Shown piece after piece: positions 32,215-61,041 of a stretch of 64,000 nt of DNA; position 1 is the first letter of the stretch; each line of letters starts with the position of its first letter. The translations under genes and the position numbers were made by a program. Under the pieces are notes generated by a model. The model did no database searches. It had not been told where the DNA came from and worked only from the letters and a program-made list of their open reading frames with translations. Source of the stretch: Eledone cirrhosa (lineage: Eukaryota); NCBI GenBank assembly GCA_964016885.1, contig OZ024741.1, positions 372,558,001 through 372,622,000 of the forward strand, in the 5' to 3' direction.

Positions 32215-32263
32215 ATGGCCTTGACAAAGAAGGAAGCTTACAATATACAAGAGTTGCCTATTG
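32215..32263 (+). pseudogene. Degenerate DnaJ J-domain gene, exon 1 (MALTKKEAYNIQELPI-)
   Basis: ATG at 32215; G|GTAAGT phase-1 donor; resembles J-domain helix I (T..EAY.IL.L). Confidence 0.7.
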
Positions 32264-33377
32264 GTAAGTGACAACAAATGTCTCATATAAATATATATGC
32301 ATGTATATACGGGTATATGTAGTCATTTATATATGTACGCATGCATAAACATATGTATGTATATATATATATATATATATATATATATATATATACACGC
32401 ACGCCCACACACACATGCACAATCAAAATATGAATACATTTATTTTCAGTGTTATTGCTTGTTGATAATGCTTATGTGCATACATCGCAATACAGCTTGT
32501 AATGTGTTCGCGCGACCTGCTTGAAATAGCAAACAAATCAATCACACCATACATCCATAAAAATAGAATGACACCCTGCACAATGTAGTCCTAGCTATAC
32601 AAAGACAGTCGTCATGACTGGAATGCCTTTGGTATAGATCTACAGATCTACTTAAGCAAGGCTGACTTAAAGCTAAACAATAACACAAACATTTGTTCGC
32701 TGTTTGCAAACAGCGGTGAATCACTATGAGTGAAATAAGTAAAAGAAAGGAATATATCAACCGACAGGCGCTTCTTGGTCACATACATACCTACTAACAG
32801 AAGACGGTGCCTATGTTAACAAAATCAATCTTCACTTAAAACAATTTAACGCGAGAACCATTACATGGTTCCATCCTGCTAGAAATAGCAGGCAAATCTT
32901 CAAGTTAAAAAAGGAAGAGCACTATGATTTACGTTATGTAAAAAAAAAAAAAAAAATTGGGAAGGGTGTGGTTGGAACGCTTTTCATCGTAGTTGTGTTG
33001 GATCAGGGCTGAGTTAGGCCTAAACAACAACAAAATGAGATGCCGTGCTGGATTTTCGTTTGATCTTATGAAAGCTATTGATAGTTTACATAACGCCTTT
33101 GAGATAATAGAACTAAAGCAGTATGACCCGTGTTGCTTCTAAACTGAGCTGATTTAAAAAAAATGTCATTTACAATTTCGTGTATCATACCGTGTAGACC
33201 TCTCGTCCCCCGCCCACCCCACATATTTCATTTTATTCTCATTTAAAACATCAACTCACACGCACCTCGCTAAACCAACTCACCCTCTCTCTTTACATTT
33301 TTACATCGAAAATGAAATCAACATGAAAAAATCAGCTGAGTTTACACACAATGCCTATGTGTATCTATATCTATATA

Positions 33378-33536
33378 CAGTGAAATTCCATTATAACGAA
33401 ATCCACGGGGTATAAAAAATTTCGCTGTAACGAAAAATTCTTTATAACGATATCGACCTAAAACATCGACCGTGTGGCCGGAGATCGAAAAAAATTTCGT
33501 TATACTGAAAAATTCGTTATAACGGAATTTTACCTG
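33378..33536. mobile_element. Tc1/mariner (pogo/Tigger-like) MITE
   Basis: TA|CAGTGAAATTCCATTATAACGAA...TTCGTTATAACGGAATTTTACCTG|TA. Confidence 0.85.
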
Positions 33537-34521
33537 TATCTTAATATAACATGGCATTCACGACTGTTTGTTTTAATATATCTGTCAGTGCTATATTGTT
33601 TGTTTTTTTGTTTTCATTTTTGGAACTGTAATGTTTACCAGTTTTGTTCTGATGACGGTCTTTCTTTAAATTGTTTTATATTTTCGTAGCATTCCAGCAC
33701 TCCCCCCACTCTCTCTCTTGTTTGAAAAAGCTTTGCTCACTTGGCCGATGAAAAGCATGTGCTTTTCAAAGGCTTTGTTCAGTTAGGAATGAAAAGCATT
33801 CTGGACTTTTCGCCCCATTTGTATTCTTTAAATTGCAAGCTGCATTGAATGAACACGTATACAAATGGATAATTGTGTATTCAATATGCATGTTTGTGTG
33901 ACTGCAATGTTATGTTACACGATTCTATCTATCTAGCATATATTACATTCAGACCGACATTTACCTGTCTAGATTTCTGTCTATCTGTCAAGTTCTCTCT
34001 CTCTCTCTCTCTCTATTCATTCAGCGAATGACAGTTATGTAAAACATGTATTAACCATAAGTCAATGTCACCATATTATTACTTAGTCCCCCATCAGCCC
34101 AAATCGAGCAGACCTTTGGTCAAATCCATCCTAGAAGTATGTCGTCTTGTTATGCTGATTTGAGAATCTCTATCTTGATTGGTAGTATTTCATATTTAAA
34201 ATGCCATAAAATAGAGAGCTTACCACAACAACAACAAAAGTATAATTAACAACTTTTTATCTACTGGCGAATTTGGCTGAGACGTTAGAGCGGCAGTATT
34301 TGTTCAGGCTCTATGTACTCTGACTTCAAAATTTGCTGGGGTCAATATATTTTTTTTCATCCTTTTACGGTCGATAGATATTATACCATGTCCTGGGTTG
34401 GCAGAATTGTTAAAACGGCAGACAAGATGATTTGTGATATCTGATTTGGCTGTGTGTATTCTGAATTCAAATCTCACATATTACTGCACCACCATCAGAT
34501 ATTGTAAGCAATGGAAACCTA

Positions 34522-34715
34522 CGAGGGGCGGCTGAAAAGTTCATAGGCTGACCAAGATACTCGTGAAATGAATTAGAGGTTTATTTTTCAACATAGTCCC
34601 TGGAAAGAAACAATGCAGTTAATTATAAGAAGAGTTGAAATTAATGCATGCGAGATTTCCCAGCTCTAGCATCGATCCCACATAGCCAACCTGTGAACCT
34701 TTCAGTCGATTCTCG
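34522..34715. mobile_element. Mariner-type MITE, copy 1
   Basis: TA|CGAGGGGCGGCTGAAAAGTTCA...TGAACCTTTCAGTCGATTCTCG|TA; homologous to 54026-54222 and 60507-60699. Confidence 0.85.
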
Positions 34716-35242
34716 TAGTTTCCTTGGTCCAATCTGACGATCAGCCCCTTTCCTTTTTGACCCTTGAACTGTACCGTTTCTTCACAAAGCCTATGTGAAA
34801 AGCTGAATATATAAAATCTTTAAATTTCTCTACCCCTAAAACTTCACTGTTCCTGCAAGGAGCAGTTAATGTGTTTTTACAAGTGGTGACATATCCTGCT
34901 AAATACCTACATAGTATATATCTTAACGTCTCATTGTTTCACATTCAAATTCAGCATGATAAAATTAGTACTTACTTATAATATGATTGATTACTTCAAG
35001 TATATATTTTTCTTTGACTAATAGGCAAAGTTATAAACTATTGTAAATAAACCTGTTGAACTCATAAAAAAAATAAATAAAACCTAGACAATAGAAATCA
35101 CCATTAATTATAATGTTTAACGAAGTGCATTGCAGTATTTGTTCTGGCTCTTTATGTTTTGAGCTTAAATCCTGCTGAGGTCAACTTTGCCTTTTATCCT
35201 TTCAGGAATTGATATAATCAGTACAAGTTGACTTTGTATTAA

Positions 35243-58740: not shown

Positions 58741-59456
58741 GTAACAGTACTGATGCTACATTAAAATGCATTTTGTAGAGTGCAGGGATATATGTGAATG
58801 TGAATTGGGCTCCCAACCCATCTTCGTACTAAGTAGCATGCAGGAACATGTGAGATGCAGGGGCCCCTAGTCTGACTGAGAGATCAGTAGCTCTGCTTGA
58901 GTACTGACTTGATCTACAAGGACCCATCCAACCCTTGCTAGCAGGGAGAACAAATGTTAAATGATGTTGATGATCTGGTGTTACTGTAAAATAATTTCAA
59001 AGTTAAGACATTTACATCCTCTGGACCCTTCATCCACTGGTTCTTGCCACTATGTCAGTACACAGTAATAACCTGCTTCATTCACTATCTTTTCATTGTC
59101 CACTTCAGAGGACACACATGAGTGGGCTCTAACTTTGACTTGATTGGAGCAAGTGACCTAAATCTACACATCCCCCTAACCACATGAGTATATATGGATG
59201 CTTGGAGGTATTGCTATTTCAATTATTTTTATTGGATCTTATTTGACTTCAGTATAGTCTATGCTACATTATCTTTCAATATACTTTATACAATTTACTA
59301 AGATATGTAACCCATGTGGAAAAATGGATATTAAACTGTGATTGTGATGATGATGATGATCTGGTGGTGTAAATTTGATAGTATTTACAAGACTATACAA
59401 TAAAATATATGTAATACATATAATACTAAGTGAATTTTATTCTCTTCTTTCTACAG

Positions 59457-59548
59457 ATGAAAAGCTGAACAGAATACATGCTATTTACAAATGTTTAGCT
59501 TCCAAATGACTCCTTGGGAAACACAGTAAATTCACTGATGTTAAAAAG
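59457..59548 (+). pseudogene. J-domain gene exon 2 (-DEKLNRIHAIYKCLASK*LLGKHSKFTDVKK)
   Basis: ttttattctcttctttctacAG acceptor, AG|GTTAGT donor; phase 1 in, phase 0 out; in-frame TGA at 59507-59509. Confidence 0.72.
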
Positions 59549-60506
59549 GTTAGTGTATTTAGATAAACAGTTCATTATCATCATTTTTATGTCTGCTTTT
59601 GATGGATGCCACATGCAGCGAGACATTCTCCTGCAGCAACCTGATGCAGTCTGCGACTAACTCAGGTTCTGCTGCACTTTGAGCCAAGGAGGGTAACTCT
59701 CCAAATATTGGTCGCTATTTGACAAGTTTGCGGTTGAGTCCATGGCAGTGGAGACTTCTGATGTCCTTGGTGTTAGGGTCACCTCCCTGCTCATCACCAT
59801 TGGCACAGAGTTGGCTTTCTGCAGGTGTGAACCTTGTGAGCTGGAATGGTTCTTCCAGCACGTCTCCCTCACCATTCTTCAGGGAAACACCTTCTCTATT
59901 CTGTCCACCGGGGTTGCAGGGTGGCCAGTGCGTGGGCCCCCATTTGCTCACAATAGTGAGAGACGAAGAAAACGGGAGGGATGAAGGACGTGACAATGGG
60001 CGTTTGGTTCTTTTGTGTTCGGACCTGGTGTATATATGTGTGTATGGGAGAGAATGAGTATTTGGTAGTTTCCACCTTTTAACCCTTTTGATAGCAAACC
60101 ATTTGAAACTGCACCTAGTTTATATTTAGATGGGCTGTTAAAGTTTGAGTGTGTTCTTATTAGGAGCTACTGCCCCATTGTTTGTAGATTCCATTTTTTG
60201 ACATTGTTTCTATGGTTGGAGGCCCTTTCTAACAGCAACCACTTTACAATGTACTGGATGCATTTTGTTGTGGCATCAGCACTAAAGAGATTATGTTCAT
60301 GTTGTCCTCTCAACCTTATGCTGTCTTTGTTCAATTGCTGGATGCATTTTATTGTGGTACCAGTTAATTATATTTTTGTCAACTGCAGCAAGAGCAAAGG
60401 AGATGCACTAGAGAGAGGTAGCTACAGAGGCATCAAATTGATGGACCAAGTCATGAGAGTTACTGAAAGAGTTGTAGTGCAGCTGACTAGAGACAGGATT
60501 AAATTA

Positions 60507-60699
60507 TGAGGGTCAGCTGAAAAGTTCATAGGCTGACCAAAATATTCTCATAGAATGACCAAATAAGGTTTATTTTTCAACATAGTTCCTGGAAACAAAC
60601 AATGCAGTTTGTTATTAATAAGAAGAGTTGAGATTAATGCATGCAAGATTTCACAGCTCTAGCATCACTCCTTCATAGTCACTTTTCAGCCTGCCCTTG
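60507..60699. mobile_element. Mariner-type MITE, copy 3, inserted in an RTE RT fragment (60375-60830)
   Basis: Splits RIKL|DEIQF at a duplicated TA. Confidence 0.85.
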
Positions 60700-60960
60700 T
60701 AGATGAGATCCAGTTCAGCAAATGCCGTCTTTTGTGTGAGATAACTGCAAAAATTCCTAGCTAAGAGTATGCCTCTGCATCTAGCATTCATTAACTTGGA
60801 AAAGACCTTTGACAGAGTTTCATGCTCTCTATATATATAATCTTGTGGGTGCTAAGTTAATCGCTGTTGTAGACTGGAACTTTTTATCATTGAATCAAAG
60901 GTGGTTTCAAGTGATTTTGATACCTAAAGGGTTAAATTTCTCTTTCTCTTTCTCTTTCAG

Positions 60961-61041
60961 AAGTTTCTTAACATCACAAAAACCTATAGTCTTCTTACTG
61001 TTGAAATACCCGAGGATCAAGTAAATTTAACAATGAAATTG
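60961..61041 (+). pseudogene. J-domain gene exon 3 (KFLNITKTYSLLTVEIPEDQVNLTMKL)
   Basis: Long pyrimidine tract + CAG acceptor, TG|GTAAGT donor; 81 nt, open in phase 0; matches helix III/IV KF..I..AY..L. Confidence 0.75.

What the first reader, a model, noticed from the sequence alone, without database searches (positions are those of the whole stretch)
32215..61041. Hidden three-exon J-domain gene with a UGA exactly at the Trp codon and HPD lost, yet intact splice sites
Seen: three small exons across 29 kb join with matching phases to give MALTKKEAYNIQELPIDEKLNRIHAIYKCLASK*LLGKHSKFTDVKKKFLNITKTYSLLTVEIPEDQVNLTMKL. Known: this tracks the DnaJ J-domain consensus (EAY.IL.L...I...Y+.LA.KWHPDK...KF..I..AY..L), and coleoid cephalopods recode mRNA extensively by A-to-I editing; UGA edited to UGI is read as Trp. 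Inference, three models: (a) an editing-gated HPD-less J-like protein that cannot stimulate Hsp70; (b) the J exons have become 5'UTR/uORF and translation restarts at the in-frame ATG at 61033; (c) a transcribed unprocessed pseudogene. Caveats: a 5' G neighbour is disfavoured by ADAR, and editing cannot restore HPD.
Basis: partly seen in the sequence, partly recalled or inferred. Interest (0 to 1): 0.72.

Follow-up and report, generated by a model that had tools for sequence, protein, structure and literature searches.

The report
Octopus TTC31 shedding its J-domain
These are the first exons of an otherwise intact octopus gene (TTC31) whose old chaperone-recruiting J-domain is decaying: a real stop codon interrupts it and a stop-filled extra exon is spliced in front, so the protein likely starts further downstream and rescue by RNA editing is unlikely.

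Summary
In detail: three GT-AG exons join in frame, with TGA at the J-domain Trp. They are the 5' end of the single-copy, 22-exon TTC31-like gene (J-TPR-RRM-CCCH) of an octopod, and this TGA is the model's only internal stop. The peptide is J-derived (43.2 bits against a non-cephalopod family profile; best of 5000 shuffles 9.3; 49% identical to the intact decapod orthologue). The TGA is genomic and shared with a related species. One spliced 2277-nt contig keeps the A, joins exon 2 to exon 3, and carries in front of exon 2 not exon 1 but an unreported 150-nt exon with three in-frame stops. HPD was already HPG in decapods; exons 2-3 diverged about 4.7 times faster than the rest of the protein; O. 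sinensis and O. bimaculoides models skip these exons altogether. Best reading: J exons decayed into a uORF-laden leader, with a J-less protein of about 530 aa from ATG 61033 (model b, about 0.72). Editing-gated Trp about 0.04; whole-gene pseudogene rejected. A neat case of domain loss in progress, not a new mechanism.

The parts
32215..32263 (+). Exon 1, coding part (ancestral start codon, first 16 residues of the J domain); the exon probably begins near 32101
   Evidence: 12 of 16 identical to decapod P0030, 13-14 of 16 to O. sinensis and O. bimaculoides. Start near 32101 is inferred from the length of X5 (313 nt upstream of exon 2 = 150 + 163).
35756..35905 (+).
   Evidence: The X5 loose end before 59456 matches 35875-35904 exactly, 1 match, 0 expected by chance. 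AG acceptor and GTAAGT donor seen; the 5' boundary is inferred from the acceptor. Stops and ATGs. Single copy.
59457..59548 (+). Exon 2 (J helices II-III and the old HPD loop, now stop-Leu-Leu-Gly-Lys-His)
   Evidence: Covered boundary to boundary, 0 differences, by spliced contig X5. 14 of 31 identical to P0030.
59507..59509 (+). TGA at the conserved Trp before the HPD position
   Evidence: No difference across it in genomic contigs X1, X2 and X3, in organism B contig X4, or in X5. Trp in P0030 and P0041.
60961..61041 (+). Exon 3 (end of the J domain), containing the likely start codon
   Evidence: The X5 loose end behind 59548 is the first 30 nt of this exon. 11 of 25 identical to P0030.
61033..61035 (+). 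First in-frame ATG after the stop (A at -3); opens a 532-aa frame through exons 4-22, which lie beyond the window (G000:C2:372627283 to 372695292)
   Evidence: A Met lies at the matching position, 1-2 residues off in the alignment, in decapod, gastropod, bivalve and chiton orthologues. Use as a start codon is inferred.

Best explanation
These exons are the decaying J-domain front end of this octopod's single TTC31-like gene, and they now likely serve as 5' leader while a J-less TPR-RRM-CCCH protein of about 530 aa is likely translated from ATG 61033 (or the next Met, in exon 4). Inferred order of events: (1) HPD/HPE became HPG in coleoids, which would end Hsp70 stimulation; (2) in octopods the J residues drifted, probably while still read as a linker, since the frame is kept; (3) TGG became TGA before the split from organism B, tolerated because a Met already sat at the end of the domain; (4) a stop-filled exon was gained upstream, leaving a leader full of short uORFs. 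Shown: exons, stop, two splice junctions, orthology, rate shift. Inferred: start site, the link of exon 1 to the extra exon, the order of events.
For: The 22-exon model has one internal stop, at residue 34. One match each for exon 2 DNA and for the last exon in G000; the decapod J query found only weak hits elsewhere, best E 5.9e-5. Downstream exons 83% identical to the decapod and 92% to Octopus; end branch 0.013. Exons 2-3: 25 of 56 identical to the decapod, distance 0.95 versus 0.20 downstream, Fisher p 2.5e-9; the same ratio is 1.5-2 between decapod and other molluscs and 1 between two decapod records. Polarised changes 13 octopod versus 4 decapod, p 0.049. X5: 2277 nt, depth 39, A at 59509, extra exon upstream; its 1872 nt downstream fit 1671 coding nt plus 201 nt ending in a microsatellite. 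None of 15 octopod records shows a J domain: Pfam run on 2, precomputed Pfam for 2 more, N-termini read. 6 of 6 O. sinensis and 4 of 4 current O. bimaculoides isoforms join exon 1 to exon 6. HPD is needed for Hsp70 stimulation (PMC13254874, passages).
Against: No protein or ribosome data. The modelled 477-nt leader has 11 upstream ATGs, a poor template for scanning to 61033 and a possible decay target. Exon 1 is better conserved than exons 2-3 (12 of 16 versus 25 of 56, p 0.047), which hints that its ATG is or was recently used in a skipping isoform. No frameshift in 173 nt: P(0) 0.01-0.38 under rough neutral assumptions of my own. Exon 2 differs at only 2 (at most 4) of 92 bases from organism B against about 7-10% in flanking contigs (P 0.003-0.04 for 2; 0.03-0.23 for 4). 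Polarised changes in J versus downstream were not significantly different (Fisher p 0.37). Transcript evidence is one contig from one run whose library is not on record.
Confidence: 0.72

Rival explanations
1. The protein comes mainly from an exon-skipping isoform (exon 1 joined in frame to exon 5 or 6, as in O. sinensis and O. bimaculoides models), and the transcript with exons 2-3 is unproductive or a regulatory decay isoform. The J domain is lost either way.
For: Exon 1 to exon 5 (529 aa) and exon 1 to exon 6 (508 aa) are both stop-free. Exon 1 is more conserved than exons 2-3. 10 of 10 current O. sinensis and O. bimaculoides RefSeq isoforms use exon 1 to exon 6. 11 upstream ATGs burden the long leader.
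Against: X5 is one unbroken 2277-nt contig whose length fits exons 2 to 22, so the inclusion form was the path kept in that run. Exons 4 and 5 remain 81% and 95% identical to the decapod, as expected if they are translated, which fits a start at 61033 better than skipping to exon 6.
Confidence: 0.17
2. The UGA is recoded (A-to-I editing to Trp, or readthrough) in an isoform joining exon 1 directly to exon 2, giving a full-length protein with an HPD-less J-like domain.
For: The stop sits exactly on the Trp codon and is the only internal one; frame and splice sites are kept; exon 2 is conserved in organism B; exon 2 folds better than shuffles (z -2.5, 2 of 200); UGA followed by C is a leaky context (recalled); squid recode extensively (PMC4384741, abstract start and passages).
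Against: X5 has A at 59509 (contigs drop rare variants, so low editing is not excluded) and carries an upstream exon with three stops and no in-frame ATG after them. ADARs are biased against 5'-GA sites (PMC9638939, abstract start). The UGA lies in a loop in the predicted fold and its best pre-mRNA duplex, -29.3 kcal/mol, is within the control range -25.5 to -33.0. His-Pro became Leu-Leu and exons 2-3 show an approximately 4.7-fold rate excess. TGG to TGA is one transition, and Trp is one of the few codons a single step from a stop, so the position needs no special explanation (established genetic code). No SECIS family matched 3.8 kb past the stop codon.
Confidence: 0.04
3. The former J exons have been co-opted as a selected translational-control leader (uORFs plus a stop-filled exon) that tunes TTC31 level.
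For: 11 upstream ATGs, the last uORF (24 codons) ending just before 61033; exon 2 is more conserved than flanking intron between organisms A and B.
Against: ATGs are expected in AT-rich former coding sequence; the counts are small; close relatives lack these exons in their annotated mRNAs.
Confidence: 0.05
4. The whole locus is a transcribed unprocessed pseudogene, or the stop is an assembly error.
For: Premature stop and lost HPD.
Against: 19 downstream exons are intact and highly conserved and no paralogue was found. The TGA stands in X1-X3 (one sample, possibly the assembly's own source), in X5, and in another species from another study, X4.
Confidence: 0.02

Closest known systems
TTC31 / invertebrate J-TPR-UBA-RRM-CCCH protein (O. 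sinensis LOC115219833, XP_029645979.1; decapod cluster with Sepia pharaonis CAE1315734.1; Gigantopelta LOC121383849; Mercenaria LOC123546690)
   Same: Orthologue: same domain order, 92% identity to Octopus and 83% to the decapod in exons 4-22; groups with octopods at 100/100.
   Different: J exons are retained and spliced but broken, whereas bivalves keep HPD, the gastropod and chiton HPE, decapods HPG, and O. sinensis and O. bimaculoides models skip exons 2-5.
Vertebrate TTC31 (lamprey P0024-P0026; human Q49AM3)
   Same: Also J-less: lamprey P0024 has no PF00226 hit; human TTC31 is described with a coiled coil and three TPRs (PMC7279152, passages).
   Different: Loss is complete there and, by inference from J-bearing echinoderm and mollusc orthologues, independent; here the remnant is still visible.
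Type IV / pseudo-J-domain proteins (DNAJB13 HPL, Pam16)
   Same: Recognisable J domain with HPD non-conservatively replaced (PMC13254874, passages); the decapod orthologue (HPG) fits this.
   Different: Those J-like domains are translated and needed; here a stop and an upstream stop-filled exon interrupt the domain.
Fungal stop-correcting A-to-I editing (PUK1 of Fusarium graminearum)
   Same: Genomic stop inside a protein domain that editing could turn into Trp.
   Different: PUK1 uses UAG stops and is ADAR-independent (PMC4817773, abstract start); here the stop is UGA in a 5'-GA context, no edit was seen and the domain around it is decayed.

Membership tests
TTC31-like orthologue group | TPR repeats, RRM and terminal CCCH finger in one gene | tested here: met
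   TPR_2 E 1.6e-6 and RRM_1 E 1.6e-5 on single exons; CCCH motif in the last exon; exon-by-exon tblastn.
TTC31-like orthologue group | Orthology (single copy, placement follows the species) | tested here: met
   One match in G000; groups with octopods at 100/100 in a 10-row tree; order within octopods unresolved.
Functional J-domain protein (Hsp40 class C) | J-domain homology | tested here: met
   43.2 bits with the family profile; not found by Pfam on single exons or by the genome scan.
Functional J-domain protein (Hsp40 class C) | HPD (or HPE) motif | tested here: not met
   Stop-Leu-Leu-Gly in place of Trp-His-Pro-Asp.
Functional J-domain protein (Hsp40 class C) | Open frame from the start codon through the J domain | tested here: not met
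   TGA at 59507; three more stops if the extra exon is included.
Functional J-domain protein (Hsp40 class C) | Stimulates Hsp70 ATPase | not testable with these tools
   Needs an assay.
Editing-rescued premature stop | Genomic stop at a conserved Trp | tested here: met
Editing-rescued premature stop | A>G at the stop in RNA | tested here: inconclusive
   A in the single spliced contig X5; contigs drop rare variants, and no raw RNA reads were listed.
Editing-rescued premature stop | ADAR-favourable neighbour and duplex | tested here: not met
   5'-G neighbour (PMC9638939 abstract start); loop position; duplex energy within controls.
Editing-rescued premature stop | Restored domain under purifying selection | tested here: not met
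   Exons 2-3 distance 0.95 versus 0.20 downstream.
Unprocessed pseudogene | Lesions and relaxed selection along the gene, usually with a working paralogue | tested here: not met
   Only one internal stop; exons 4-22 conserved; no paralogue found.

The most novel reading that the evidence does not exclude
An animal gene whose N-terminal J-like domain is switched on by recoding a genomic UGA (ADAR editing to Trp or readthrough) in an isoform that skips the stop-filled exon, giving J-like-bearing and J-less forms of TTC31. This would explain the kept frame, the kept splice sites and the low divergence of exon 2 from organism B.
Probability: 0.04. Interest if true: 0.75.

Novelty: new variant of a known kind. 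Interest (0 to 1): 0.27.

Why it matters
It is a snapshot of domain loss in progress. One orthologue series shows HPD/HPE (bivalves, gastropod, chiton), HPG (decapods), broken but spliced J exons (this octopod and organism B), and models without them (O. sinensis, O. bimaculoides, O. vulgaris, Argonauta), paralleling J-less vertebrate TTC31. That suggests the poorly studied TTC31 began as an Hsp70 co-chaperone coupled to RNA-binding domains and lost the link repeatedly. One full-text search for TTC31 with 'J domain' found 0 papers; this is one search of one library. Practical value: annotation of this gene's start. It is not evidence for editing-gated genes in cephalopods.

Tried and rejected
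Pfam on 3 single-exon pieces: 0 families. Genome-wide PF00226 scan missed the locus, and a general J profile was borderline; these reflect small decayed exons, not absence. No RNA holder was listed among 8 runs; X5 is of unrecorded kind and is treated as a transcript only because it is spliced at GT-AG boundaries. X6 gave 2 raw genomic reads over exon 2, both 99% or more alike, too few for differences to be listed. Selenocysteine: no SECIS family in 3.8 kb past the stop codon, only 2 miRNA hits far below their gathering scores. The extra exon has a tRNA A-box-like stretch (resemblance recalled), but ARAGORN found 0 genes in the window, Rfam 0 matches, and it is single copy; its origin is unknown. 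A search with the decapod N-terminus returned 2 of 146 candidates and no further cephalopod J forms. No earlier scan notes nearby. Literature: TTC31 + tetratricopeptide gave 11 papers, of which I read passages of 2, neither on a J domain; searches showed, by titles and abstract starts, nothing on this gene or on UGA rescue in cephalopods. No supplements were read. No structure or complex prediction was run: it would not separate the rivals. The Argonauta model begins in another frame of exon 1 and could not be checked against DNA.
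Full report
Observation. The three exons are real, have AG/GT ends and matching phases, and give the reported peptide with TGA at 59507-59509. The window is G000:C2:372558001-372622000 in a 3.0-Gb genome, and exon 2 has one match there. General J profiles barely see the peptide. A profile from 10 non-cephalopod orthologues scores it 43.2 bits against 9.3 for the best of 5000 shuffles.

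The gene. I fetched 200 kb downstream. Splice-site scans, tblastn and boundary checks gave 19 more exons, encoding a charged region, TPRs, an RRM and a terminal CCCH finger. The 22-exon model is 603 residues with one internal stop, at residue 34; ATG 61033 opens 532 aa. The last exon retrieved 27 homologues of 27 candidates, led by Octopus sinensis, O. bimaculoides and Argonauta; several Octopus isoforms are named TTC31 by their source. The last exon has one match in G000 and the decapod J region finds no close second copy. In a 10-row tree of the part downstream of exon 6 the gene groups with octopods (100/100), with an end branch of 0.013; order within octopods is unresolved. So the gene is not a pseudogene.

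Is the stop real? Genomic contigs X1 and X2 span 58938-59665 with 0 differences and X3 spans exon 2 with none; these are one sample and may be the assembly's source. The TGA is therefore inherited and older than that split.

Transcript. X5 (library not on record) has one 2277-nt contig, depth 39, that matches exon 2 from boundary to boundary with 0 differences and continues into exon 3. Upstream it continues not into exon 1 but into 35875-35905, the end of a 150-nt exon with an AG acceptor and a GTAAGT donor. Only the last 31 nt of that exon were seen in the contig. The 313 nt upstream of exon 2 fit this exon plus 163 nt of exon 1 from 32101, and the 1872 nt downstream fit 1671 coding nt plus 201 nt ending at a microsatellite; both fits are inference from length. 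In the J frame the extra exon has three stops and no ATG after them, so the ancestral ATG would give a 23-residue uORF, and editing the UGA could not help this transcript. The modelled leader is 477 nt with 11 ATGs. One contig cannot exclude minor isoforms or low editing.

History. Two full-length members of the decapod cluster have an open J domain with Trp-His-Pro-Gly (PF00226 43.5 and 41.7 bits); that cluster holds Sepia pharaonis records, but these two members are unnamed. Bivalves have HPD, the gastropod and chiton HPE. Of 159 proteins surveyed (including the profile's 10 seeds and unrelated TPR proteins) 47 hit the family J profile: HPD 17, HPE 8, HPG 3, other variants 10, unread 9. 35 of 70 with the CCCH tail had a J hit, though some records are partial. 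Decay of this J domain thus looks recurrent. All 6 O. sinensis and all 4 current O. bimaculoides RefSeq isoforms join exon 1 to exon 6; an older O. bimaculoides model, its UniRef model, 2 O. vulgaris models and the Argonauta model also lack the J region. These are annotations, not checked against DNA. Lamprey P0024 has no J hit. Between this gene and the decapod, exons 2-3 are 25 of 56 identical (distance 0.95), exon 1 is 12 of 16, and exons 4-22 are 435 of 527 (0.20); between the decapod and other molluscs the J to downstream ratio is only 1.5-2. Polarised changes in exons 2-3 are 13 versus 4 (p 0.049), though not significantly more skewed than downstream, 27 versus 18 (p 0.37).

Mechanism. 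HPD is essential for stimulating Hsp70, and HPE is the only tolerated change named (PMC13254874, passages), so the decapod HPG domain is predicted to be inactive already. The lack of frameshifts despite heavy residue change (P(0) 0.01-0.38 under rough assumptions) suggests drift while the region was still translated as a linker, then the stop, tolerated because a Met lay at the end of the domain. The product is most likely a J-less TPR-RRM-CCCH protein from 61033. A skipping isoform from exon 1 is the main rival: both joins are in frame and exon 1 is better conserved. The high identity of exons 4 and 5 (81%, 95%) favours their translation.

Editing. In its favour: the position on the Trp, kept frame, low exon 2 divergence from organism B (P 0.003-0.23 depending on assumptions), a fold z of -2.5, and extensive recoding in squid (PMC4384741, abstract start and passages). 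Against it: A in X5, the stop-filled exon, the 5'-GA context (PMC9638939, abstract start), loop position, an unremarkable duplex, lost His-Pro, and J-less relatives. The known stop-correcting case I found is fungal, UAG-based and ADAR-independent (PMC4817773, abstract start).

Verdict. Real and well spotted, but best explained as N-terminal domain loss caught midway: a new variant of a known kind, interest 0.27. One search found no paper with both TTC31 and 'J domain'.

Noticed in passing
window 1-2211 (-): Open frame of 737 aa running off the window's start, with many C2H2 zinc fingers (zf-H2C2_2 E 1e-60) and Asp/Gln-rich tracts; it points away from the TTC31 gene.
   Followed up: partly
window 9807-12929 (+): Uninterrupted 1040-aa LINE frame with endonuclease, reverse transcriptase and a PHD-like finger; broken relatives at 36787-39431 inside the first TTC31 intron and further copies downstream.
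   Followed up: partly
window 61747-64000 (+) and 23749-25500 (+): Two other reverse-transcriptase frames; the first starts about 700 bp after exon 3 on the sense strand.
   Followed up: partly
window 35780-35860: The extra exon contains a stretch resembling a tRNA A-box (recalled likeness); ARAGORN and Rfam were negative and it is single copy. Origin unexplained.
   Followed up: partly
window 32109-32122: A YY1-like motif (recalled) with an upstream ATG lies just inside the inferred transcript start near 32101.
   Followed up: no
P0003 (Argonauta hians model) versus window 32199-32261: The annotated Argonauta N-terminus matches exon 1 read in another frame and then exon 4, hinting at a third way of losing exons 2-3 or at a forced annotation.
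   Followed up: partly
proteins: Several distant TTC31-like proteins carry altered J motifs (HPT, HPS, FPD, LPD, YPE) or heavily eroded J domains, so erosion of this domain recurs across animals or other eukaryotes; the taxa are not named.
   Followed up: partly
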